Source of the DNA: Escherichia phage IME08
Sequence record: NC_014260.1
Length of the DNA stretch: 64,000 nucleotides
Strand: one strand, 5' to 3'
A model generated the notes under the pieces. The model worked only from the letters and a program-made list of their open reading frames with translations, ran no database searches and was not told the DNA's origin. Of this stretch, positions 6,968 through 17,871 are shown piece by piece (the first letter of the stretch is position 1; the number at the start of each line of letters is the position of its first letter). Both the position numbers and the translations under genes were made by a program.

Positions 6968-8527
6968 ATGAAAAAGAATGCATTAGTTCAAAAATGGTCC
7001 GCTCTGCTGGAAAACGAAGCTCTTCCTGAAATCGTTGGTGCTTCTAAACAAGCTATCATCGCTAAAATTTTCGAAAACCAGGAACAAGACATCCTGACTG
7101 CTCCAGAATATCGTGACGAAAAAATCTCCGAAGCATTTGGTTCTTTCCTGACTGAAGCTGAAATCGGTGGTGACCACGGTTATGATGCTACCAATATCGC
7201 AGCTGGCCAGACCTCTGGTGCTGTAACTCAGATTGGGCCGGCAGTAATGGGTATGGTTCGTCGTGCTATTCCTCATCTGATTGCTTTTGATATTTGTGGT
7301 GTTCAGCCTCTGAATAACCCTACTGGTCAGGTATTTGCACTGCGTGCAGTATACGGTAAAGACCCTATCGCTGCAGGCGCTAAAGAAGCTTTCCATCCGA
7401 TGTATGCTCCGAACGCTATGTTCTCTGGTCAGGGTGCTGCTGAAACTTTCGAAGCACTGGCTGCAAGCAAAGTTCTGGAAGTTGGTAAAATTTATTCTCA
7501 CTTCTTCGAAGCTACCGGTGCTGCACACTTCCAGGCTGTTGAAGCTGTGACCGTTGATGCAGGCGCTACTGATGCCGCTAAACTGGATGCTGCTGTTACC
7601 GCTCTGGTTGAAGCTGGTCAACTGGCTGAAATCGCTGAAGGTATGGCTACTTCTATCGCTGAACTTCAGGAAGGTTTCAACGGTTCTACCGATAACCCGT
7701 GGAACGAAATGGGCTTCCGCATCGACAAACAAGTTATCGAAGCTAAATCCCGTCAGCTGAAAGCAAGCTACTCTATCGAACTGGCACAGGACCTTCGTGC
7801 AGTACACGGTATGGATGCAGATGCTGAACTGTCCGGTATCCTTGCTACCGAAATTATGCTCGAAATCAACCGTGAAGTTATCGATTGGATTAACTACTCT
7901 GCACAGGTTGGTAAATCTGGTATGACCAACACCGTTGGCGCTAAAGCTGGTGTGTTTGACTTCCAGGACCCGATTGATATCCGTGGTGCTCGTTGGGCCG
8001 GTGAGAGCTTTAAAGCCCTTCTGTTCCAGATTGATAAAGAAGCAGCCGAAATCGCTCGTCAGACCGGTCGTGGTGCTGGTAACTTCATCATCGCTTCCCG
8101 TAACGTAGTTAACGTACTGGCTGCAGTTGATACTTCTGTAAGTTATGCAGCTCAAGGTTTGGGTCAGGGTTTCAACGTTGACACAACCAAAGCAGTATTT
8201 GCCGGTGTTCTTGGTGGTAAATATCGTGTTTACATCGACCAGTATGCTCGTTCCGATTACTTCACCATCGGTTATAAAGGTTCTAACGAAATGGACGCAG
8301 GTATCTACTATGCTCCGTACGTTGCACTGACTCCGCTGCGTGGTTCCGATCCGAAGAACTTCCAACCGGTAATGGGCTTCAAAACTCGTTACGGTATCGG
8401 TATTAACCCGTTCGCTGACCCAGCTGCTCAGGCGCCTACCAAACGTATTCAGAATGGTATGCCTGACATCGTTAACAGCCTCGGTCTGAATGGTTACTTC
8501 CGTCGCGTTTACGTTAAGGGAATTTGA
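6968..8527 (+). CDS. 23: Major capsid protein gp23
   Basis: 519 aa; recalled T4 gp23 similarity, position after gp22. Confidence 0.97.
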   Translation: MKKNALVQKWSALLENEALPEIVGASKQAIIAKIFENQEQDILTAPEYRDEKISEAFGSFLTEAEIGGDHGYDATNIAAGQTSGAVTQIGPAVMGMVRRAIPHLIAFDICGVQPLNNPTGQVFALRAVYGKDPIAAGAKEAFHPMYAPNAMFSGQGAAETFEALAASKVLEVGKIYSHFFEATGAAHFQAVEAVTVDAGATDAAKLDAAVTALVEAGQLAEIAEGMATSIAELQEGFNGSTDNPWNEMGFRIDKQVIEAKSRQLKASYSIELAQDLRAVHGMDADAELSGILATEIMLEINREVIDWINYSAQVGKSGMTNTVGAKAGVFDFQDPIDIRGARWAGESFKALLFQIDKEAAEIARQTGRGAGNFIIASRNVVNVLAAVDTSVSYAAQGLGQGFNVDTTKAVFAGVLGGKYRVYIDQYARSDYFTIGYKGSNEMDAGIYYAPYVALTPLRGSDPKNFQPVMGFKTRYGIGINPFADPAAQAPTKRIQNGMPDIVNSLGLNGYFRRVYVKGI

Positions 8528-8585: not shown

Positions 8586-9257
8586 CTATAACTTATAGCA
8601 ATCGTCAAATTGAGGCCTTGTTTCTTTAATCCAATTACGAATGGTAGCTCCGGTAACATTAAAAAATTCGGCGGCGGTTTCGTATCTGTCAAATCTATAT
8701 CCTTTAATCATTATATCAACAAATACAAATTTCTTACCTTTATTAGAGTTCTCTCTAATTTTGGCTTTATGTTCTTCCGATAGTTTCCTACCTTTAAGAT
8801 GAGAATCCCTATTCTCATAAAACTTTTTATTAGCTATAGATTTGTTTTCTCGGTGCTCTTTGGATTCTTTAGAACCTGTTTTCGATTTAGACATTTTGGC
8901 CCTTACTTCCTTGGTCATACCTGCCTTGGTCTTTTCGGATAACATCTCACGATACCCAGGTTCCTGTAAAGCTACTATAACAGGATTACCCTTACCACCT
9001 AAAGCTGCATTATAAGTATCTGTTCTCATAACAAAAGCCTCGTCAACTAGTTCGGCTTCCTTAGCATACATCTCTTCAGATGTTTCGAAATTGAAAAGGA
9101 TTTCCTTTTTAAAATTCTCTAAGCCGTATTTCTTTATGGATTTTACTATGTTAACCCCGGAGCCCATATAAGAATCATTAACATCTGTAGTGGCATGGGC
9201 TCCAACATAAATCTTGTTATTAATGAGATTGGTTATTTTGTAAATTAAATAATTCAT
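8586..9257 (-). CDS. segD: GIY-YIG homing endonuclease, SegD-like (free-standing mobile gene)
   Basis: N-terminal LIYKITN...NKIYVGA GIY-YIG motif; T4 segD occupies same position between 23 and 24. Confidence 0.8.
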   Translation of the reverse strand: MNYLIYKITNLINNKIYVGAHATTDVNDSYMGSGVNIVKSIKKYGLENFKKEILFNFETSEEMYAKEAELVDEAFVMRTDTYNAALGGKGNPVIVALQEPGYREMLSEKTKAGMTKEVRAKMSKSKTGSKESKEHRENKSIANKKFYENRDSHLKGRKLSEEHKAKIRENSNKGKKFVFVDIMIKGYRFDRYETAAEFFNVTGATIRNWIKETRPQFDDCYKL

Positions 9258-9628: not shown

Positions 9629-10909
9629 ATGGCAAAGATTAACGAATTACTGCGCGAGTCAACAACTACTTCTAGCAACTCATTGGGTCGCCCTAATCTT
9701 GTTGCTTTGACCCGTGCTACAACCAAATTGATTTACCGTGATATTATTGCTGAACAACGTACTAGCCAGCCTATTGCTGCATTGTATGGTGTCAAATATC
9801 TTACCCCTGATAATGAATTCAGTTTCCAAACTGGTGCTGTTTATGGCGGTGAAGTTGGTTCTAAAGACCGTGAAACTATCCCAGAACTCACAGATAAGGC
9901 CCAGGCGATTGCCAAGGGTGAATATTTCAAGTATCAGAATATTGTTTATAAGGCTCTTCAAGCAAGCCCACTCGCATCCACTAGCGCTACAGAATTGGCT
10001 GATGCCCTTCAAGAAGGTTTGGTGTCATTAACATGTCGTCTGGTTCCTGATGCGGCTCACACAGAGAAATTCGAAGCAGGTGATGTTGAAATTAGCAATG
10101 CAGTATTCCAGGTTAATAAATGGAACGCACCTGTTAAGTCTCGTAAACTTAAAACCGCTTTGACTGTAGAACTAGCCCAAGACATGGAATCCAATGGCTT
10201 CGACGCCCCTGCATTCTTAGAAGACCTCCTGGCTACAGTAATGGCAGATGAAATTAATAAAGACGTTCTGCAGTCTCTAATAACTGTATCTAAACGCTAT
10301 AAAGTTACCGGTGTATCTGATAACGGTATTGTCGATTTGTCTTATGACAGTGCTCCGGAATCTGCACGTAAACTTTATGAAATGGTTTGTGAGATGAATT
10401 CTGAAATTCAGAAAACCACTTCTTATTCAGGTACGTTTGTTGTCGCATCTAGTCGTGTAGCTGCAATGCTTGCTGGTTCAGGTTGGTTGAAACATAAACC
10501 AGAAGATGAAGCTTGGCTCCCAGAAACCGCTTATGGTTATTTGATTAACGGATTGCCTGTATTCTGTGATGTTAATAGTCCTTTAGATTATGTTATCGTG
10601 GGCGTTAAAGAAGATTACGGCGGTAATGAAGTGGTTGGTTCTATTTTCTATGCTCCGTATACCGAAGGTCTGGATTTAGACGACCAAGAACATGTTGGTG
10701 CCTATAAAGTTATTGTAGACCCTGATAGTTTGCAACCGGCTATTTCTCTGATGGTTCGTTATGCACTTTCAGCAAACCCATATACCGTTGCTAAAGATGA
10801 TAAAGAAGCTCGTGTTATAGACGCAACTAATATGGATTTAATGGCAGGGCAGAGTAACATGTCTTATCTGCTTGGTGTTAAACTTCCTCCAATTATTTAC
10901 GAGGCATAA
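9629..10909 (+). CDS. 24: Head vertex protein gp24
   Basis: 426 aa; close to recalled T4 gp24 (MAKINELLRESTTT...). Confidence 0.95.
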   Translation: MAKINELLRESTTTSSNSLGRPNLVALTRATTKLIYRDIIAEQRTSQPIAALYGVKYLTPDNEFSFQTGAVYGGEVGSKDRETIPELTDKAQAIAKGEYFKYQNIVYKALQASPLASTSATELADALQEGLVSLTCRLVPDAAHTEKFEAGDVEISNAVFQVNKWNAPVKSRKLKTALTVELAQDMESNGFDAPAFLEDLLATVMADEINKDVLQSLITVSKRYKVTGVSDNGIVDLSYDSAPESARKLYEMVCEMNSEIQKTTSYSGTFVVASSRVAAMLAGSGWLKHKPEDEAWLPETAYGYLINGLPVFCDVNSPLDYVIVGVKEDYGGNEVVGSIFYAPYTEGLDLDDQEHVGAYKVIVDPDSLQPAISLMVRYALSANPYTVAKDDKEARVIDATNMDLMAGQSNMSYLLGVKLPPIIYEA

Positions 10910-12193
10910 ATGAAAAAGATTAATGCATTAATACAAGAATCAACTTTGACGGCGGCCAACCAGGTCGCCCGTCCTAATCTTCTTTCATATACCCAGGCAA
11001 CTAATAAAAGAATTTTTAAAGCCCTTGTTGCTGAACAAAAAACTACTCAACCTGTTGCAGCATTATATGGTGTCCGTGTTTTAAACCCAGACGATAAAAT
11101 GACTTATCTCGGCGGAGCCACTTTTGCAGGCGAAATTGGTATGTTCGAACGTAAAAACATTCCTGAATTCACCGATAAAGACGAAGCATATGCTGTTGGT
11201 GATATGTTCCAATTCGAAAGTGTGGTTTTCAAGGTATTAGAAGCTTCTCCGTTTGCAGGAACAACTGAAACCGATTTGGGCGAAGTTATTTCAGAAGCTA
11301 TTGCCGCAGGCCATATTCGTATGATGTCTGATGCAGCCTTTACCAATAAATTTGAAAAAGGCCATCCTGAGATTGCTGAAGCAGGATTCCGTATTGATAA
11401 GTGGCAGACTGAAGTTAAATCGCGTAAACTTAAAACTTCTTTGACTGTAGAACTGGCCCAGGATTTAGAATCCAACGGGTTTAATGCACCAGACTTTATA
11501 GACAATATTTTGGCTATTCAAATGGCCGAAGAAATTAATAAAGACGTATTACAGTCCTTAATTACGGTAAGTTCTCGTTTTAAAGTCCAAGGAGTTTCCG
11601 AGAAAGGCGTCTTGAACTTAACAGACCCACAATATGATAACGCCCAAGACCGAGCGCGTACCTTGTATTACTATATGTGTGAAATGAATTCTGCTGTTCA
11701 ACGCCAGACTTCGTTTGCAGGTACTTATGCAGTAGCTTCTTCTCGTTGCGCCGCTATTTTAGCTGCATCCGGTTGGGTTGAGAAAAAAGAAGACCAAGAC
11801 GAATTAGCTTATGGCATATTAAAGAACGGTCTACCACTTTATGCTGATATGAATAGTCCGTGTGATTATGTTATTGTCGGTGTAAATGCTCAGATGGGTG
11901 AAGGGCAGACGGTCGCATCTTTGTATTATGCGCCTTATACGGAAGGGCTCGAAGAAGTTGATGATGAAGGTGATACTTCAGTAGGTGAATTCAAGGTTAT
12001 TGTAGACCCAGATTCATTGCAACCTACCATATCTTTATTGGCTCGGTATGCATTGACTGCGAATCCTTATACCGTCGCTAAAGACGACAAAGAAGCTCGT
12101 ATTATTGACGGTGCGGATATGGACAAAATGGCTAATCAAAGTCAATTGAGTTCTTATCTTGGTGTTAAACTTCCTCCACTTGAAAAAAGCTAA
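10910..12193 (+). CDS. gp24 paralog (second vertex-protein-like gene, diverged)
   Basis: 427 aa colinear with gp24 along full length but substantially diverged; start ATG directly follows gp24 stop. Confidence 0.9.
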   Translation: MKKINALIQESTLTAANQVARPNLLSYTQATNKRIFKALVAEQKTTQPVAALYGVRVLNPDDKMTYLGGATFAGEIGMFERKNIPEFTDKDEAYAVGDMFQFESVVFKVLEASPFAGTTETDLGEVISEAIAAGHIRMMSDAAFTNKFEKGHPEIAEAGFRIDKWQTEVKSRKLKTSLTVELAQDLESNGFNAPDFIDNILAIQMAEEINKDVLQSLITVSSRFKVQGVSEKGVLNLTDPQYDNAQDRARTLYYYMCEMNSAVQRQTSFAGTYAVASSRCAAILAASGWVEKKEDQDELAYGILKNGLPLYADMNSPCDYVIVGVNAQMGEGQTVASLYYAPYTEGLEEVDDEGDTSVGEFKVIVDPDSLQPTISLLARYALTANPYTVAKDDKEARIIDGADMDKMANQSQLSSYLGVKLPPLEKS

Positions 12194-12205: not shown

Positions 12206-12412
12206 ATGGTAGATGAAACCCTGTTTGGTCATGACGGAAGAGGCAACTTTAGTGGCAAATCCTTAATTCAGCCAGAAGAGTCTATTATAATTCCGTTTTC
12301 GAACATCAGAATTTCTACAGAAAAGATAAAGTTAAATGAAGTTGAAGTTAACAATTTAGCAAAAAGTATTTTAGAATCAACAACCCAAGAAGAGGTTCAT
12401 AGTGTGTTTTAG
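12206..12412 (+). CDS. Small ORF A (68 aa) with N-terminal LFGHDGRG motif; probable N-terminal segment of the collagen-like protein
   Basis: ATG with AGGAG RBS; ends at TAG 12410-12412 three codons after the collagen-like frame opens. Confidence 0.5.
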
Positions 12413-13602
12413 GAATAAACAATTCCCAGATAGAGCCAATAGAGGGTCCGCCGGGCCCTCAAGGAGACCCGGGCCCACAAGGTATTCAAGGCCCGCCCGG
12501 CCCTCAAGGAGACCAAGGTCCACAAGGTATTCAAGGCCTTAAAGGAGATAAAGGAGATACAGGTCCACAAGGTATTCAGGGCCTACAAGGACCCAAAGGA
12601 CCTAAAGGAGACCAGGGTCCACAAGGCATTCAAGGGCCTATAGGTCCTATAGGTCCCGCAGGGCTAATATGGAAAGGAGAATGGGATGTAGATACACTTT
12701 ACTCTGTCGATGATGCTGTTGGATATGCAGGTGCATCATATTTTTGTATAGCCGAAAATACCGGTAATATACCCACAGAATCGCCGGAAAACTGGGCCTT
12801 ATTAGCATCGCAAGGAGCTAGAGGAGAATCAGGGGCCCAGGGCCTACAAGGACCCAAAGGGGATAAAGGAGATACGGGTCTTCAAGGTATTCAAGGACCC
12901 AAAGGGGATAAAGGAGATACAGGTCTTCAAGGACCTATAGGGCCTATAGGACCTAAAGGAGACCAGGGTCCTCAAGGTTCTAGAGGTATTCAAGGTATTC
13001 AAGGTCCCCAAGGAGACCAGGGCCCACAAGGTTCTAGAGGTATTCAAGGTATTCAAGGACCTCAAGGAGACCAAGGTCCGCAAGGCCTTCAAGGACCCCA
13101 AGGAGATAAAGGAGAGGATGGATTCGGAATTGATTCTAAAATAAGTGGGGTATATAAAATTCCTGCATCCGGAACCAAAGGACAATTTTATATAAACTTA
13201 CCTGGGGCAGGTGGTCTTAGATTGATTGTATCAACGGCTGGGACAGGTAATGCTGTTAAAATAGGATACGGAGGTAACTCTAGCACTGTTCAAAGAACAT
13301 TTACTATAGGATATAATTTAACAGCTAATTATACCGATTTGGCAAAAATAAAAACCGGTAGGATAAATTATACAGGGTATACTTCGGTTTCATATAGTAG
13401 CGATACAACGGCTCTAGTCGGATATGGGGATATGTATACAGCAATAGCCTCTAATAAAGATACTTTAGATTCATGGCATATAGTAATATCAGGCGTAGTG
13501 GCAAAATCATCTGCTTCGGCCACTGATGGAAGATTACTTATATCTGTAACTAAAGTTTTTGATTCCGAAACTCAACAGATTCAAACAGGTGAAATATATT
13601 AA
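12403..13602 (+). CDS. Collagen-like fibre protein (two Gly-X-Y blocks, CBM5/12-like linker, C-terminal globular domain); no canonical start codon
   Basis: Continuous open frame of about 400 codons; 24 and 34 Gly-X-Y triplets; first ATG/GTG/TTG in frame is TTG at 13222. Confidence 0.75.
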
Positions 13603-13608
13603 AACATA

Positions 13609-13626
13609 AAGGGCCGCAAGGCCCTT
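13609..13626. terminator. Bidirectional hairpin terminator between collagen-like gene and rnlB
   Basis: AAGGGCC-GCAA-GGCCCTT perfect stem between convergent genes. Confidence 0.6.
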
Positions 13627-13631
13627 ATCAT

Positions 13632-14639
13632 TTATTTGGATACTAGTTCAATCCAAACATGTCTTAATGTTTCTTTTACACACTCAATGAGCTGCTTTTT
13701 AACTTCAACAGGATTTTCAGCGTCAGTTAATTCTAATTCTTCACGGGCAGCTTCTTCAAGGATATCTTGGACCGTCAAGCCCATTACCTTTCCAAAATCC
13801 TTTTTGGAAACTTCGCCAATCTTACTGATAACATTGTTAATACGGTTAACAGTCACATAATCAGTGAATTGCCACATCAAATCCATATCGTCTTGGGATA
13901 AAACTACCGCAGCCTTAATAGGCTTATCAGACTTTTTCTTCTCGCTGAATTTAGAGTTCTTACATTTAATCGCTACACGATTTCCGTTTGGAAGCCAGGT
14001 AGGAATATCAGGTTTAAGTACAAAGCCTTCAGCCGTGAATACTTTACCTTCTACCTTAGGAATAAAGTCTGTAGAGTTTGCAATAGTTAGGCCGGCGTTA
14101 TCCACCGCAAAATTATAATCAGGAATAACTGAATCAAAGTCATTAGGTAATTTAATAAGGTCTTCAAAGCTACCTGTAGCCAGACATGGGGCTACCTTAA
14201 ACTTATGGATAATACAGAAGGCTTCCATCAATGTATCGGTTAGAACAGATTCTGAACCGTCTTCCTTAGTAACTCGGATATCGAACACATAAAAGTCTTT
14301 ATCACCGTAGTCCACATTCTTCTGGATACCTGGTCCAGCGAATTCGCCATAAATCTGGTACGACTGATAATTAATCGATTCAATTAGATGTTGAACAGAT
14401 TTAATAGAATCAGCATAGTTCTTAAGTACAATTTCATAACCATAGAAATCTTCAGCAGGGAGGATAGGGCCAGTGCGCTTGGCGCATGTGACTGCGTCAC
14501 GTTCTATGATTAAACTAAAGTTGGTCCCGTGAATCTTCTCACGTGCAACCCATTCACCACCAGTCAAACCGTTGATACGGAGTTTTTCGATAAACTTACT
14601 GTTGTAGTGGTTTTCGAGACTGCTATATTTCTTGAACAT
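13632..14639 (-). CDS. rnlB: RNA ligase 2 (RnlB, gp24.1)
   Basis: 335 aa; matches recalled T4 Rnl2 N-terminus [16 protein letters not shown] and KIHGTN nucleotidyltransferase motif. Confidence 0.93.
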
Positions 14640-14753
14640 AAATCACCATAATAAATATAATTAAATAGAAGAGCTAGTATTCTTCTGTCACCAAGCCAAA
14701 TGGTTTAACGGAAGGACCTAGACCCATTATAACACATCTAAATTTAAAGCATA

Positions 14754-14963
14754 TTACTTTGAACTAGAACGCGCTTTGCGCCGAACCTTGTTGTTCAATC
14801 TTTTACGATAGACAATCTTTTCTTTCGCTTTAAATTTGGCCTTAGCATTCTCAACTTCGGTCCAAGCTTTAGCCATATCTCTGGCGGTTCCGCCAATCTT
14901 TTTAGCAATATCAATAAAATTCATACCCGATTCATGTAAAAAATGTACTTTAATCTTATCCAT
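14754..14963 (-). CDS. Small basic protein (24.2/24.3-like), possible DNA-binding
   Basis: 69 aa ORF preceded by early promoter; lysine/arginine-rich C-terminus. Confidence 0.5.
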   Translation of the reverse strand: MDKIKVHFLHESGMNFIDIAKKIGGTARDMAKAWTEVENAKAKFKAKEKIVYRKRLNNKVRRKARSSSK

Positions 14964-14991
14964 AACAATTCTCTTGTGATTTGACTATTCA

Positions 14992-15021
14992 ATAATAACA
15001 TGAGAATTTTAACTTGTAAAC
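14992..15021 (-). promoter_or_regulatory. Early promoter GTTTAC-N18-TATTAT
   Basis: Minus strand GTTTACAAGTTAAAATTCTCATGTTATTAT. Confidence 0.5.
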
Positions 15022-15031
15022 AGGAGATTTT

Positions 15032-15106
15032 ATGCCAGACAATCCATTATACGGGCATGACGGTAGAGGTGTATCATTAGAACTCACTAGTGAAAGCACC
15101 TTTTAA
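15032..15106 (+). CDS. Mini-ORF B (24 aa) sharing the LYGHDGRG N-terminal motif with ORF A
   Basis: ATG with CAGGAGA RBS; MPDNPLYGHDGRG...; two in-frame stops before the Hoc-like ATG. Confidence 0.35.
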   Translation: MPDNPLYGHDGRGVSLELTSESTF

Positions 15107-15115
15107 GGAGGTTAA

Positions 15116-15982
15116 ATGATTGCACTTAAAATAAATGGTCCTAGATATGAATTGGTTGGTAAGACTGTAACGTTGTATACCGCATTTGTATTACCAGCAG
15201 GTTTGACTCTAGATGATATAGAAATTAATTGGTATAAAAATAATGTCCATGTCCCACAACTTCCTATTGAAGACCCTTTTGAATTGAATTTATGGGATGT
15301 TGGATATCCGGCGGCAGGAACATTTTATGCAACTATAACAAACAAGAAAAGTGGTGAAATAACAAAGAGTAATGAAATAGAACTTGAAATAGGTGTCATT
15401 CCAAGAAGAGTAATCCTGGATATAAGCTCTAGGGAATTAATATATGCCGATATAGGAGAAACCGTTTCACTTCGCCCGTCGTGTAGAGTAGAACCTACTT
15501 ATGCCGTACGTGATTGTAGATGGTATAGAAATGGAGTAGAATTATCTAACGATGAAGATATTGATATAACAATAGATAGTTCTGATAAATTCGGTACATA
15601 CATGTTGAAATCTATAGCGACCTGCGAAGGAGCGTATATCCCTGCTTCTGAAGAACTTTTAGTTGAAATAAAACCTAGAGGGGGTGTATTGCAGTGCCCG
15701 TTCATATATGATAACGACCTTAATGCCTATTTACCATATGGCGGCGGAAGAAATGAATCTTATATGTGGATAGGTTGGTGGGTGTGGGACGAAATAAGAG
15801 AAGCCGTTAGATTAGGAGAAGATTGGACGTTGGATATAAACAACAGCCGTTACAAGTATAAATGTGAGTTACAAAAAGTAGCCGACCTTTTGTCTAAGTA
15901 TCATGAAGTAGAGATACAAGAATCTAGAAACGGATATATTCTGGGGCGTAAAGACTTGCTTTATGTTCCGCCTGTACCATAA
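15116..15982 (+). CDS. Hoc-like capsid decoration protein paralog (two Ig-like domains plus Hoc-type C-terminal capsid-binding domain)
   Basis: C-terminus ESYMWIGWWVWDEI...EVEIQESRNGYI parallels Hoc SAYIWCGWWVMDEI...EVDVQESRNGRI; AAGGAGG RBS. Confidence 0.85.
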   Translation: MIALKINGPRYELVGKTVTLYTAFVLPAGLTLDDIEINWYKNNVHVPQLPIEDPFELNLWDVGYPAAGTFYATITNKKSGEITKSNEIELEIGVIPRRVILDISSRELIYADIGETVSLRPSCRVEPTYAVRDCRWYRNGVELSNDEDIDITIDSSDKFGTYMLKSIATCEGAYIPASEELLVEIKPRGGVLQCPFIYDNDLNAYLPYGGGRNESYMWIGWWVWDEIREAVRLGEDWTLDINNSRYKYKCELQKVADLLSKYHEVEIQESRNGYILGRKDLLYVPPVP

Positions 15983-15990
15983 AAAAATAA

Positions 15991-16012
15991 AGGGACCCGA
16001 AGGTCCCTTTTT
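15991..16012. terminator. Bidirectional terminator between Hoc-like gene and hoc
   Basis: AGGGACC-CGAA-GGTCCCT hairpin with T-run on both strands. Confidence 0.65.
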
Positions 16013-16014
16013 AA

Positions 16015-17148
16015 TTAATAAACGTAATCGTAAATAATTCCAGCATCCAAAGCGGTTCTGTGAATAATTCTACCATTACGAGATTCCTGTACATCAACCT
16101 CCGGATAGTCAGTAATCATTTTTTGAAGAGTATAACGATGGAGATAGAAATCACTATCAGGGTCATCGGTTTTCCAGTCTTTGCCTTCAAGAGTCATTTT
16201 CTGGATTTCGTCCATAACCCACCAACCACACCAGATATAAGCTGAATTGCGAACTGGTAGCGGATGAACGTAAGGTAGTTCGCCCTCTGGAACTGGTGCG
16301 ACTTTAGCCGTGACTGTTACATTACCAGTTTTGGTAACAGTCGTAGGGTTATAATCGGCGGCCGAAACAACAGCAGAAACTTCAATAACCTGTGAACCTT
16401 CAGCGCTTGTGTCAATTACTAATGTATCTGTAGCACCCACAACAGGTGAACCGTCTTTCTTCCAAGAATAAGCAAAAGTGGCACCACTAGGCGCACCTGC
16501 TACGGTAGCTTTAAAAGAAGCCGGAGTTCCTTCAGGTACATTAATAGAGGCTGGCGTTAAATTAACAGAAACCCCAGACATTGTTTTCTTAACAAAAGAA
16601 ACCGTTACGCCTTTAGCAGCAGTTGCTGAACCGTATTCCGGAGAGGTAACAGTAACTTCACAATTCAAGGTATAATTTGCTTCGGCTGCTTCAGTTAGTG
16701 TAATAGTTTTAGAGGTTTGGCCTGAAATTACGGTGGTATTTCGTTTCCAAACATAATTAATTGTTGCACCAGCAGGAGCACCGGTTACATTAGCCGTAAC
16801 AACTTGGGATTGGCCGACTTCTTTAGAAACGGAAGTAGGGTCCAAAGCCAAAGAGATATCCATAGTTTTATTAGATACAGTAACTTCAAAGGTGTCTTCG
16901 GCTGTCTCAAGAGGACCCGCATCGCCAGGGTCAGAAGTTACTACTACTTTTATAACTTTCTTACCCGCAGGAGCAGCACCCGTATATCTCAAAACATTAG
17001 TGGTTTCTGGGTTAGCAGCTCCATCAACGGTCCATACATATGCAATGGTTCCACCTGTTACAACTGCGTCGGTTGCGGTAGCAGTGTAGTTAGCGCTTTC
17101 GCCTATTTTCATAGACGCTGCGCCGGCTATACTTACAGTAAAGGCCAT
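16015..17148 (-). CDS. hoc: Highly immunogenic outer capsid protein Hoc
   Basis: 377 aa; near-identical to recalled T4 Hoc C-terminal half (LPYVHPLP...YIWCGWWVMDEIQKMT). Confidence 0.92.
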   Translation of the reverse strand: MAFTVSIAGAASMKIGESANYTATATDAVVTGGTIAYVWTVDGAANPETTNVLRYTGAAPAGKKVIKVVVTSDPGDAGPLETAEDTFEVTVSNKTMDISLALDPTSVSKEVGQSQVVTANVTGAPAGATINYVWKRNTTVISGQTSKTITLTEAAEANYTLNCEVTVTSPEYGSATAAKGVTVSFVKKTMSGVSVNLTPASINVPEGTPASFKATVAGAPSGATFAYSWKKDGSPVVGATDTLVIDTSAEGSQVIEVSAVVSAADYNPTTVTKTGNVTVTAKVAPVPEGELPYVHPLPVRNSAYIWCGWWVMDEIQKMTLEGKDWKTDDPDSDFYLHRYTLQKMITDYPEVDVQESRNGRIIHRTALDAGIIYDYVY

Positions 17149-17157
17149 AGTTTACCC

Positions 17158-17835
17158 TTATTTTAAAGTGACAAAAGATGAATTACGCGTTTCACGTACT
17201 AATACTGAGCCATTACGATTGATGTAATAAATCAGACTGAATAATGTTTGGTGGGCTGAAGGATGTTGGAAATCTTTAGGACGTTCTTTCCAATCAGGGG
17301 TTTCAGAAATCCATTGATAAATCCACCAAGGAACAGTACAGTAACCTGGGTTTTTACCAATAAGCAAAAGATTGGGACTAAAGTTTTCAGGGAGTTCAAA
17401 TTTAGGTTTTTCTGATTCTTTAACCAAGGTTATAGCTTGATTGAATTTCTCTTCGACAAACGGAACAACTTCTTCAATAATCTCGACCTTAGGAAGTTCG
17501 ACTACCTCAACGACTTCAACTACAGCCTCAGGGGCATCGAACAACAGGGTTGCTTCTTCTTTAGCAGGTTCGGCTCCATCAATAAATTCATTAGAACCTG
17601 TAAGTTCGTCAGCAGCATCAATCAAATCAGAAATGGACAAACCTTCGGTTTCTGGAAGTGGTTCGTCGGCCAGGGCTTTAAGACCTTCAGTGATATCGAT
17701 AATCAAATTATCAAACGAACGGGTTTTCTTAAGTTTTAAACCGAACTGTTCGCCGTATTCGATTAACTTAGCTTTAGCTTCTTTTTTATCTTCGAGTGCA
17801 CGAAGCTCTTCAATATATTGGCGGTCCATAATCAT
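17158..17835 (-). CDS. inh: Inh-like protein (inhibitor of prohead protease), acidic
   Basis: 225 aa between hoc and uvsW as in T4; assignment by position and size only. Confidence 0.55.
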   Translation of the reverse strand: MIMDRQYIEELRALEDKKEAKAKLIEYGEQFGLKLKKTRSFDNLIIDITEGLKALADEPLPETEGLSISDLIDAADELTGSNEFIDGAEPAKEEATLLFDAPEAVVEVVEVVELPKVEIIEEVVPFVEEKFNQAITLVKESEKPKFELPENFSPNLLLIGKNPGYCTVPWWIYQWISETPDWKERPKDFQHPSAHQTLFSLIYYINRNGSVLVRETRNSSFVTLK

Positions 17836-17849
17836 TCTCTTTTCTAGTG

Positions 17850-17857
17850 TATAAATA
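17850..17857 (+). promoter_or_regulatory. Late promoter TATAAATA (plus strand, toward uvsW)
   Basis: Exact TATAAATA in inh-uvsW divergent intergenic region. Confidence 0.45.
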
Positions 17858-17863
17858 TAACTA

Positions 17864-17871
17864 TATTTATA
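17864..17871 (-). promoter_or_regulatory. Late promoter TATAAATA (minus strand, toward inh/hoc)
   Basis: Reverse complement of TATTTATA. Confidence 0.45.

What the first reader, a model, noticed from the sequence alone, without database searches (positions are those of the whole stretch)
15032..15982. Second Hoc-like Ig-domain decoration gene, convergent with hoc
The ORF at 15116-15982 has two Ig-like domains and a C-terminal segment clearly homologous to the capsid-binding domain of Hoc (WIGWWVWDEI...EVEIQESRNGYI versus WCGWWVMDEIQ...EVDVQESRNGRI). It lies on the opposite strand from hoc, and the two genes share a bidirectional terminator. Two proteins with the same capsid-anchoring module may compete for the same site on gp23 hexamers, which would give a variable display scaffold.
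Basis: partly seen in the sequence, partly recalled or inferred. Interest (0 to 1): 0.7.

Follow-up and report, generated by a model that had tools for sequence, protein, structure and literature searches.

The report
Second, fibre-linked Hoc capsid protein
This T4-like phage really does carry a second, shorter Hoc head-decoration gene; such genes are already annotated in relatives, but in every relative it follows a collagen-like fibre gene, which here has been deleted down to a 24-codon stub.

Summary
ORF 15116-15982 (+, 288 aa) is a genuine Hoc paralogue. It has two Ig-like domains and a C-terminal domain homologous to the T4 Hoc capsid-binding domain, with most of the published capsid-contact residues kept. 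It converges on the resident hoc (16015-17148, -), and the two genes share one hairpin terminator.

This is not new as a kind. Relatives annotate the same gene (dhabil at 88.5% aa identity, JS10, CGG4-1 "Hoc I", Aeromonas phage 65 "hoc-2"). Fokine et al. 2023 describe second, shorter two-Ig Hoc proteins.

This "Hoc2" is an old paralogous lineage, not a recent copy of hoc. In all about 18 distinct intact examples it is the second gene of a two-gene cassette. The first gene encodes a collagen-like fibre with a conserved GH(D/N)GRG N-terminus, and its stop codon usually overlaps the Hoc2 ribosome-binding site.

In this window that fibre gene is reduced to a 24-codon remnant (15032-15106). A paralogous fibre gene lies at 12206-13602 and is frameshifted as sequenced.

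Hoc2 stays under purifying selection. It most likely docks on gp23 hexamer centres alongside Hoc. Whether it also anchors the fibre is an untested and apparently unpublished possibility.

The parts
15116..15982 (+). Hoc2: short Hoc paralogue, 288 aa, pI 4.7. Ig-like domain 1 is aa 1-95 (15116-15400). Ig-like domain 2 is aa 96-188 (15401-15679). The flexible linker is aa 189-195. The Hoc-type capsid-binding domain is aa 196-285 (15701-15970).
15032..15106 (+). 24-codon remnant (MPDNPLYGHDGRGVSLELTSESTF) of the collagen-like fibre gene that precedes Hoc2 in all relatives. Compared with dhabil it carries three in-frame deletions of 12, 39 and 1380 nt.
   Evidence: the same remnant occurs in the independent contig L013
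15104..15118 (+). Junction TAAGGAGGTTAAATG. The stop codon of the fibre remnant overlaps the Shine-Dalgarno sequence of Hoc2. The same kind of junction is seen in intact cassettes.
15989..16010 (.). Shared two-way intrinsic terminator hairpin (AAAGGGACC-CGAA-GGTCCCTTT) with T/A runs on both sides.
16015..17148 (-). Resident canonical hoc (Hoc1), 377 aa, with three Ig-like domains plus the C-domain. It is inh-linked, as in T4.
17158..17835 (-). inh (prohead protease inhibitor), lying upstream of hoc in the same late transcription unit.
17864..17871 (-). Exact T4-type late promoter TATAAATA for inh-hoc.
14650..14657 (+). AATAAATA, one mismatch from the late-promoter consensus, 382 nt upstream of the cassette. 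It is the only candidate late promoter for Hoc2 in this window. The position is conserved in dhabil, JS10, KIT01 and VR5.
   Evidence: weak
14992..15020 (-). Sigma-70-like promoter (TTTACA, 17 nt spacer, TG-TATTAT) for the leftward 24.3/rnlB genes. It explains the conserved sequence just upstream of 15032.
12206..13602 (+). Second collagen-like fibre gene with the same class of N-terminus ([13 protein letters not shown]). It is interrupted by a frameshift in a T4 run at 12408-12411. One extra T restores a 465-aa ORF. It is the possible in-trans partner of Hoc2.
7937..7993 (+). gp23 segment equivalent to T4 Gly326-Arg344, the Hoc docking site. It is 18/19 identical to T4, and D336 and R344 are kept.
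   Evidence: PMC10385173

Best explanation
ORF 15116-15982 encodes a functional second member of the Hoc head-decoration family. I call it Hoc2 here.

Proposed mechanism:
- Its C-terminal domain docks into the centre of expanded gp23 hexamers, as T4 Hoc does. This step is inferred from conserved contact residues and a conserved gp23 site.
- Its two Ig-like domains then project from the head.
- Each hexamer offers one site, and the resident three-Ig Hoc keeps the same contacts. The two proteins must therefore share or compete for the same sites (inferred).

Lineage and context:
- Hoc2 is not a recent copy of hoc. It belongs to an old paralogous lineage that is always encoded as the second gene of a two-gene cassette.
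- The first gene of that cassette encodes a collagen-like fibre with a GH(D/N)GRG N-terminus. Its stop codon usually overlaps the Hoc2 ribosome-binding site.
- In this phage the adjacent fibre gene has been removed by in-frame deletion, leaving a 24-codon stub that preserves that junction. Hoc2 has since stayed intact under purifying selection.

What Hoc2 does for the fibre is left open here (see the first rival and the novel case).
For: Family membership:
- BLASTP to the resident Hoc gives E=1e-17. PHROG 1149 gives 1.9e-42. T4 Hoc in PDB gives 4e-13.
- The AF2 model has pLDDT 86.9, with two Ig-like domains plus an alpha/beta C-domain. Its top Foldseek hit is RB49 Hoc, 3SHS.

Capsid contacts:
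- T4 R300, Y304, W306, W309, W310, D313, Q354, ESRNG355-359 and Y360 are all identical in Hoc2 (R212, Y216, W218, W221, W222, D225, Q268, ESRNG269-273, Y274). This comes read against PMC10385173.
- The gp23 docking segment is 18/19 identical to T4.
- Hoc2 is acidic (pI 4.72), like Hoc.

Selection:
- dN/dS is 0.18 against dhabil, and 0.06 in the C-domain.
- dN/dS is 0.15 against L013, an independent metagenome contig that carries the same fibre deletion.

Old paralogy:
- In the C-domain tree, fibre-linked short Hocs separate from inh-linked Hocs.

Cassette:
- The fibre N-terminal domain occurs in only 26 of 50,697 phage records. 25 of those are exactly the records that hold a full-length Hoc2 (one of them, PspYZU05, holds a truncated match), always just downstream on the same strand.
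- The same arrangement appears in metagenome loci L010, L011, L060-L063.
- About 27 canonical Hoc genes in IMG/VR are instead preceded by inh, and none by a collagen gene.

Late expression in relatives:
- An exact TATAAATA lies 63 nt upstream of the fibre gene in L010 and L011. Exact copies lie further upstream in four other loci.
Against: - No virion proteomics or structure for any member of this lineage was found.
- This window has no exact late promoter upstream of Hoc2. There is only AATAAATA at -382, read antisense through gene 24.3.
- Two contact residues differ: Y293 becomes F196 and H295 becomes Y198. The beta1-beta2 loop carries a 9-residue insertion that the model predicts with low confidence. 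Site preference could therefore differ from Hoc.
- The cassette partner is deleted here, and the other fibre gene is frameshifted as sequenced. The module may be in decay.
Confidence: 0.75

Rival explanations
1. Adaptor model. This extends the best explanation rather than excluding it. Hoc2 is the capsid-side anchor of the collagen-like fibre. Its C-domain sits on a gp23 hexamer, and its distal Ig domain(s) hold the conserved N-terminal domain of the trimeric fibre, giving the head receptor-binding fibres. In this phage the cognate fibre gene was deleted. The fibre encoded at 12206-13602, which has the same N-terminal class and a C-terminal part related to rV5-like tail fibres, would be the replacement cargo.
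For: - Strict pairing: every intact fibre gene of this class in the phage collection is followed by a Hoc2 gene, and every full-length Hoc2 is preceded by one.
- There are about 18 distinct cassettes across Dhakavirus, Gelderlandvirus, Roskildevirus, Aeromonas phages and metagenomes. The gap is at most about 10 nt (Aeromonas 65 overlaps by 4 nt, Cronus has a 1-nt gap), and in most of the junctions examined the stop codon overlaps the SD.
- Contig L010 carries two pairs in tandem (fibre+Hoc2, fibre+Hoc2), so the pair duplicates as a unit.
- In Cronus the pair sits at a different locus, after gp24b, but is still a pair.
- Within one genus there are two alternative cassette types. In these the fibre N-terminus and the Hoc2 Ig domains are replaced together, while the Hoc C-domain is retained.
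- The distal Ig1 is more conserved than Ig2 (52% against 44% mean identity), unlike the fast-evolving distal domains of canonical Hoc.
- The fibre has a conserved N-terminus and a mosaic, variable C-terminus, as expected for a fibre attached by its N-terminus.
Against: - No direct evidence of interaction exists.
- Covariation could simply reflect inheritance of linked genes as a block.
- Hoc2 remains under purifying selection in two lineages that lack the adjacent fibre (window and L013), so it has value without that fibre.
- A monomeric anchor for a trimeric fibre needs a symmetry mismatch or three converging Hoc2 molecules.
Confidence: 0.4
2. Hoc2 is a fibre assembly or chaperone protein, analogous to tail-fibre assembly genes that lie just downstream of fibre genes. 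On this view it is not a stable capsid component.
For: - It sits immediately downstream of a fibre gene with a coupled junction.
- That arrangement is typical of fibre-chaperone pairs (general knowledge).
Against: - The domain under the strongest constraint is the Hoc capsid-binding domain, with most capsid contacts intact.
- There is no similarity to any chaperone family. Pfam gives only weak Ig hits.
- Hoc2 is retained intact where the adjacent fibre is deleted.
Confidence: 0.07
3. Hoc2 is a decaying leftover. The cassette is being lost in this lineage, and Hoc2 is no longer expressed or useful.
For: - The adjacent fibre gene is deleted.
- The other fibre gene is frameshifted as sequenced.
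- Decayed cassettes exist elsewhere: PspYZU05 has a 49-aa fibre stub plus a truncated Hoc2, and AP1 has only a 78-aa stub.
- There is no exact late promoter nearby.
Against: - The 288-codon ORF is intact with a strong SD.
- dN/dS is 0.15 since divergence from L013, which shares the deletion. The 14 substitutions comprise 9 synonymous and 5 non-synonymous.
- All three deletions are in frame and keep the native stop/SD junction.
Confidence: 0.06
4. Hoc2 is a recent duplication of the resident hoc gene in this genome.
For: It lies adjacent to hoc and shares its domain plan.
Against: - C-domain identity to the resident Hoc is only about 37%. It is 64-96% to the closest fibre-linked Hocs (JS10, CGG4-1, dhabil) and 42-56% to more distant ones. 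The two groups form separate clades.
- The Ig domains show no significant similarity to those of Hoc1.
Confidence: 0.01

Closest known systems
T4 Hoc (highly immunogenic outer capsid protein; PDB 5VF3, 8T1X, 3SHS for RB49)
   Same: - It has a C-terminal capsid-binding domain with the ESRNG loop, the WW helix start and the R300/D313 equivalents.
- It has an N-terminal string of Ig-like domains.
- It is acidic.
   Different: - It has two Ig domains instead of three.
- It carries a 9-residue insertion in the beta1-beta2 loop, and Y293F and H295Y changes.
- It has a family-invariant Cys pair (C194, C250) that Hoc lacks.
- It is not downstream of inh. It is encoded on the opposite strand in a fibre cassette.
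Annotated orthologues: dhabil_241 and CLB_P2 'head decoration protein', JS10 EpJS10_0177, CGG4-1 'Hoc I', Aeromonas phage 65 'hoc-2'
   Same: - Same lineage, at 88.5%, 48%, 62% and 38% aa identity.
- Same position, convergent with hoc or near it.
- Same two-Ig plus C-domain plan.
   Different: All of them keep the upstream collagen-like fibre gene. The window, and the metagenome contig L013, have lost it to a 24-codon stub.
Second short Hoc of Serratia phage Muldoon (314 aa) and the Hoc-like proteins of Enterobacter phage PG7 (Fokine et al. 2023, PMC10385173)
   Same: It is a second protein with the Hoc capsid-binding domain in one genome. The Muldoon protein also has two Ig-like domains.
   Different: - The Muldoon short Hoc lies in tandem directly after the 1174-aa Hoc, with no collagen-like gene (L026).
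- It was not retrieved as part of the fibre-linked lineage.
SPP1 gp12 (collagen-like trimer at hexamer centres) and phi29 gp8.5 head fibres
   Same: These are precedents for fibres, including collagen-like ones, decorating phage heads and aiding adsorption (PMC7602432).
   Different: They bind the capsid directly. Here a separate Hoc-type protein would provide the capsid contact (hypothesis only).
Capsid fibres of Agrobacterium phage 7-7-1, proposed to be based on an Ig-domain link protein (PMC12796354)
   Same: An Ig-type domain protein is proposed as the anchoring base for a long flexible head fibre.
   Different: - Those fibres sit at pentameric vertices.
- The proteins are unrelated.
- The fibre protein there is unidentified.

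Membership tests
Hoc family (T4 Hoc-like head decoration proteins) | C-terminal domain homologous to the T4 Hoc capsid-binding domain (residues 281-376) | tested here: met
   phmmer against PDB T4 Hoc gives E=4e-13. BLASTP against the resident Hoc gives 1e-17. PHROG 1149 gives 1.9e-42.
Hoc family (T4 Hoc-like head decoration proteins) | Conserved capsid-contact residues: the ESRNG loop, R300, D313, W309 and W310 | tested here: met
   All are identical in the alignment, read against PMC10385173. Y293 and H295 are replaced by F and Y.
Hoc family (T4 Hoc-like head decoration proteins) | N-terminal string of Ig-like domains | tested here: met
   The AF2 model has pLDDT 86.9 with two beta-sandwich domains. 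The top Foldseek hit is 3SHS, RB49 Hoc. Pfam Ig_2 scores only below threshold.
Hoc family (T4 Hoc-like head decoration proteins) | One copy binds the centre of each expanded gp23 hexamer, and the protein is present in virions | not testable with these tools
   Only indirect evidence is available. The gp23 docking segment is 18/19 identical to T4. No proteomics was found.
Hoc family (T4 Hoc-like head decoration proteins) | Late-gene expression from a TATAAATA promoter | tested here: inconclusive
   There is no exact motif between 13602 and 15116, only AATAAATA at 14650. Exact motifs lie upstream of the cassette in six related loci, at -63 in two of them.
Orthologue of T4 hoc (inh-hoc unit) | Located directly downstream of inh on the same strand, with its C-domain in the inh-linked clade | tested here: not met
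   That position is taken by 16015-17148. Hoc2 is on the opposite strand and falls in a separate clade.
Fibre-linked short Hoc ('Hoc2') cassette (defined here) | Two Ig domains plus a Hoc C-domain, with the invariant Cys pair and the KYKC motif | tested here: met
   C194 and C250 are invariant in 13-14 family members.
Fibre-linked short Hoc ('Hoc2') cassette (defined here) | Immediately preceded by a collagen-like fibre gene with a GH(D/N)GRG N-terminus, whose stop codon usually overlaps the Hoc2 SD | tested here: inconclusive
   Only a 24-codon remnant with the motif and the native junction is left. This shows ancestry, but the intact partner is missing at this site. A paralogous fibre gene lies at 12206-13602.
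Tail-fibre assembly chaperones (Tfa / gp38-like) | Sequence or profile similarity to known chaperone families | tested here: not met
   Pfam and PHROG scans return only Ig and Hoc-like families.

The most novel reading that the evidence does not exclude
A subset of T4-like phages builds two-component head fibres. A short Hoc paralogue (Hoc2) docks on gp23 hexamer centres and uses its Ig domains to hold the conserved N-terminal domain of a trimeric collagen-like fibre with exchangeable, tail-fibre-like tips. The Hoc site would then serve as a socket for receptor-binding fibres.

Hoc2's two Ig domains are probably long enough (order of 80-90 A from typical Ig-domain dimensions; not measured on the model) for three molecules on neighbouring hexamers to reach a local three-fold axis and hold one trimer. 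That geometry is speculation.

The window would show cargo exchange: the cognate fibre gene deleted and a different fibre with the same N-terminal class encoded 2.9 kb upstream.
Probability: 0.35. Interest if true: 0.7.

Novelty: new member of a known kind. Interest (0 to 1): 0.4.

Why it matters
The gene itself is ordinary: a second Hoc-family protein that relatives already annotate.

The context adds value. A strictly conserved gene pair links a Hoc-type capsid anchor to a collagen-like fibre across several genera of T4-like phages. I found no paper describing this link.

If the link is physical, three things follow.
- It would give a concrete function to a Hoc paralogue, at a time when the natural role of Hoc itself is still debated.
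- It would reveal head-borne adhesion fibres in well-studied coliphage groups that are used for phage therapy (JS10, CLB_P2).
- It would offer a natural two-part display system for T4-type capsid engineering.

The window also provides a natural "fibre-minus, Hoc2-plus" variant for comparison with dhabil or CLB_P2.

Tried and rejected
- Single-sequence AlphaFold2 gave a useless model (pLDDT 44.6). It was replaced by the alignment-based job.
- Pfam alone does not call the Ig domains.
- I looked for an exact late promoter upstream of Hoc2 and found none in the window. The conserved sequence just upstream of 15032 is better explained as the sigma-70-like promoter of the leftward 24.3/rnlB genes.
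- I considered that the gp24 duplication (two vertex-protein genes) might go with the cassette. I rejected this because L060 has the cassette with a single gp24 gene.
- I considered a recent duplication of hoc. The C-domain tree rejects it.
- I considered PspYZU05 as a fibre-Hoc fusion ('Rosetta stone'). It is instead a decayed cassette with separate small ORFs.
- IMG/VR scans with the Hoc2 and fibre-N-terminus profiles returned only already known isolates.
- Literature searches for virion proteomics of JS98/JS10, VR7, CGG4-1 and Cronus found nothing usable. The JS98 genome paper is not held.
- The T4 late-transcription review did not give promoter-variant data.
- I could not decide whether the frameshift at 12408-12411 is a sequencing error, a real mutation or recoding. 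The 4-T run is not a canonical slippery site.
Full report
**What is there**

The window is part of a T4-like phage close to the genus Dhakavirus. The local gene order is:
- gp23 (6968-8527)
- a small leftward ORF
- two gp24 paralogues (9629-10909 and 10910-12193)
- a collagen-like ORF (12206-13602)
- rnlB (13632-14639, -)
- a DUF2774/24.3-like gene (14754-14963, -)
- a 24-codon ORF (15032-15106, +)
- the ORF in question (15116-15982, +)
- hoc (16015-17148, -)
- inh (17158-17835, -)
- uvsW (17886-, +)

The ORF is real, has a strong Shine-Dalgarno sequence (TAAGGAGGTTAAATG), and encodes 288 aa.

**Checking the observation**

Homology to Hoc is well supported:
- BLASTP against the neighbouring Hoc gives E=1e-17.
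- PHROG 1149 'Hoc-like head decoration' matches at 1.9e-42.
- T4 Hoc chains in the PDB match at 4e-13 over residues 211-278.

Pfam Ig models are only sub-threshold, so I tested the two-Ig claim by structure.
- A single-sequence AlphaFold2 run failed (pLDDT 44.6).
- A run on a 19-sequence alignment gave pLDDT 86.9. It shows two beta-sandwich domains (about 1-93 and 97-187), a low-confidence linker, and an alpha/beta C-domain.
- Foldseek against the PDB puts the Ig-domain string of RB49 Hoc (3SHS) first, at E=7e-13. Tandem-Ig adhesion molecules follow.

The 32-nt gap between the two stop codons holds a hairpin at 15989-16010. It is stable on both strands (-13.8 and -15.2 kcal/mol, no shuffle as good) and is flanked by T/A runs.

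**Is the capsid-binding function plausible?**

Fokine et al. 2023 (PMC10385173) list the T4 Hoc residues that contact gp23.
- In the alignment, R300, Y304, W306, W309, W310, D313, Q354, the E355-G359 loop and Y360 are all identical in the new protein.
- Y293 and H295 are replaced by F196 and Y198.
- The beta1-beta2 loop is 9 residues longer, and this loop is modelled with low confidence.
- The gp23 segment that receives Hoc (T4 326-344) is 18/19 identical in this phage, and D336 and R344 are kept.
- The protein is acidic (pI 4.72), like the resident Hoc (4.73).

Docking at hexamer centres is therefore a strong inference. Sharing or competing for those sites with the resident Hoc follows from it. 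Neither could be tested here.

**It is already known as a kind**

- The closest phage records (dhabil, dhaeg, CLB_P2; 88.5% aa identity) annotate two 'head outer capsid' or 'head decoration' genes at this locus.
- JS10 annotates two hoc genes. CGG4-1 annotates 'Hoc I' and 'Hoc II'. Aeromonas phage 65 annotates 'hoc-2, second copy of the hoc gene'.
- Fokine et al. 2023 explicitly discuss second, shorter Hoc proteins with two Ig-like domains (Muldoon) and other proteins that reuse the Hoc capsid-binding domain (PG7).

In dhabil and CLB_P2 a 501-aa gene ends 9 nt before the short hoc gene. It encodes a collagen-like protein made of:
- a conserved ~80-aa N-terminal domain beginning M-x-D-x-x-L-[YF]-G-H-D-G-R-G
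- Gly-X-Y runs interrupted by CBM5/12-like modules
- a variable C-terminal domain

The same pair is found in CGG4-1, JS10, Aeromonas phage 65 (where the genes overlap by 4 nt) and Erwinia phage Cronus.

tblastn with the fibre N-terminal domain finds only 26 of 50,697 phage records.
- 25 of these are exactly the records that hold a full-length short Hoc of this type (one of them, PspYZU05, holds only a truncated match). The Hoc gene is always just downstream on the same strand.
- The 26th, Aeromonas phage AP1, has only a 78-aa fibre stub and no Hoc2.

Metagenome contigs carrying Hoc2 homologues show the same pair with gaps of 8-10 nt. The fibre stop codon overlaps or abuts the Hoc2 ribosome-binding site (L011, L060-L063). 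Contig L010 carries two pairs in tandem.

As a control I used a Hoc-profile scan of IMG/VR. About 27 canonical Hoc genes are preceded by inh, and none by a collagen gene. Muldoon's short Hoc follows the 1174-aa Hoc in tandem, which is a different arrangement.

Other Dhakaviruses (VR5, KIT01 and their relatives) carry a second cassette type at the same locus. Its fibre has a different N-terminus, and its short Hoc has unrelated Ig domains. The Hoc C-domain is recognisably the same (49% identity, ESRNG loop, the same Cys pair).

**State of the cassette in this window**

Aligned to dhabil, the window has three in-frame deletions (12, 39 and 1380 nt) inside the fibre gene. These leave MPDNPLYGHDGRGVSLELTSESTF and the native stop/SD junction.

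An independent 1,284-nt metagenome contig (L013) is collinear with 14781-15985 at about 98.6% identity. It carries the same deletion.

Selection on Hoc2:
- Between the window and L013, Hoc2 differs by 9 synonymous and 5 non-synonymous changes (dN/dS 0.15).
- Against dhabil, dN/dS is 0.18 overall. By domain it is 0.06 in the C-domain, 0.23 in Ig1 and 0.35 in Ig2.
- Hoc2 has therefore been kept functional after losing the adjacent fibre gene.

A second fibre gene of the same N-terminal class lies at 12206-13602, directly after gp24b. This is the locus where Cronus keeps its whole cassette.
- As sequenced it is split by a frameshift in a run of four Ts (12408-12411). One extra T restores a 465-aa ORF.
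- Its C-terminal two-thirds resemble 'tail fibre' proteins of rV5-like phages at about 35% identity.
- It has no close DNA match in the phage collection.

**Age of the paralogy**

A tree of C-domains separates the inh-linked Hocs from the fibre-linked short Hocs.
- The inh-linked Hocs are 66-94% identical to each other.
- The fibre-linked short Hocs are only 37-45% identical to the Hoc of their own genome.

Hoc2 is thus an old lineage or a horizontally moving cassette. It is not a recent copy of hoc.

**Expression**

inh-hoc has an exact late promoter at 17864-17871. No exact TATAAATA precedes Hoc2 in the window. The only candidate is AATAAATA at 14650. It sits at a conserved position beside the rnlB start, and transcripts from it would run antisense through gene 24.3.

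In relatives, exact late promoters lie on the cassette strand. They sit 63 nt upstream of the fibre gene in L010 and L011, and 630-1024 nt upstream in four other loci. Late expression is likely for the family but unproven here.

**Mechanism and alternatives**

My best-supported account is this. Hoc2 is a working second Hoc-family decoration protein. It docks on gp23 hexamer centres through its C-domain and shares those sites with the three-Ig Hoc. I put confidence in the capsid-binding decoration role at about 0.75.

The most interesting extension is that its Ig domains hold the N-terminal domain of the collagen-like fibre, so Hoc2 would anchor head fibres. Evidence for it:
- the strict pairing
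- the coupled junction
- duplication as a pair
- movement as a pair
- joint replacement of the fibre N-terminus and the Hoc2 Ig domains between cassette types
- the unusually conserved distal Ig1 (52% against 44% for Ig2)

Evidence against it:
- there is no interaction data
- linked genes covary anyway
- Hoc2 survives without the adjacent fibre

I put this extension at about 0.35-0.4.

A chaperone role (0.07), a decaying relic (0.06) and a recent duplication (about 0) are less likely, for the reasons given in the rival list.

I found no paper that links Hoc paralogues with collagen-like fibres. The nearest precedents are SPP1 gp12, phi29 head fibres, and the Ig-domain-based capsid fibres proposed for phage 7-7-1.

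**Verdict**

The finding is real and correctly identified, but it is a new member of a known kind. Its main value is the cassette context and the natural fibre-deletion variant seen here. Interest 0.4. If the adaptor reading proves true, about 0.7.

Noticed in passing
window 12206-13602 (+): Collagen-like fibre gene directly after gp24b, with Gly-X-Y runs and a CBM5/12-like module. Its N-terminus, [13 protein letters not shown], is of the same class as the fibres paired with Hoc2. It is split by a frameshift in a T4 run at 12408-12411, and one extra T gives an intact 465-aa ORF. Its C-terminal part is about 35% identical to rV5-like 'tail fibre' proteins. It has no close DNA match in the phage collection. 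I could not tell whether the frameshift is a sequencing error or real.
   Followed up: partly
window 9629-10909 and 10910-12193 (+): Two tandem gp24 (vertex protein) paralogues, 56% identical. The same duplication occurs in dhabil, JS10, VR5, CGG4-1 and Cronus. It is not strictly linked to the fibre+Hoc2 cassette, because L060 has the cassette with a single gp24.
   Followed up: partly
window 8586-9257 (-): A 223-aa ORF between gp23 and gp24a with sub-threshold GIY-YIG (SegE-like) and NUMOD3 matches. It is probably a seg-type homing endonuclease.
   Followed up: partly
window about 16590, inside hoc: Mosaic breakpoint. DNA from 14700 to about 16591 is about 90% identical to dhabil/CLB_P2. From 15980 through the rest of hoc and inh, the best match is KIT01 at 92.8%. 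The resident Hoc has three Ig domains where dhabil's has four.
   Followed up: partly
window 13609-13626: A second two-way terminator hairpin, between the collagen-like gene (+) and rnlB (-).
   Followed up: yes
window 17850-17871: Back-to-back exact late promoters (TATAAATA): one on the + strand for uvsW and one on the - strand for inh-hoc.
   Followed up: partly
L010 1892-6861 (Logan SRR10097265, 118.9-kb contig): Two fibre+Hoc2 pairs in tandem (488+278 aa and 586+286 aa). They are followed by a convergent 932-aa Hoc and inh.
   Followed up: yes
L003 5386-8220 (Salmonella phage CGG4-1, CGG41_168): A third protein with a Hoc-type C-domain in one genome. It is 944 aa, is annotated as hypothetical, and its C-domain is of the fibre-linked type (FKYPC). 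It lies between 'Hoc I' and 'Hoc II'.
   Followed up: partly
L006 2873-3537 (PspYZU05) and L055 3495-3731 (Aeromonas phage AP1): Decayed cassettes. PspYZU05 keeps a 49-aa fibre stub plus a truncated short Hoc. AP1 keeps only a 78-aa fibre stub.
   Followed up: yes
L008 3262-5391 (VR5) and L009 2993-5429 (KIT01): An alternative 'type B' cassette at the same locus. The collagen-like fibre has the N-terminus MTQTTGEKEGVFYGYSLYDL. It is paired with a short Hoc that has unrelated Ig domains but the same C-domain, and both genes are annotated as hypothetical.
   Followed up: partly
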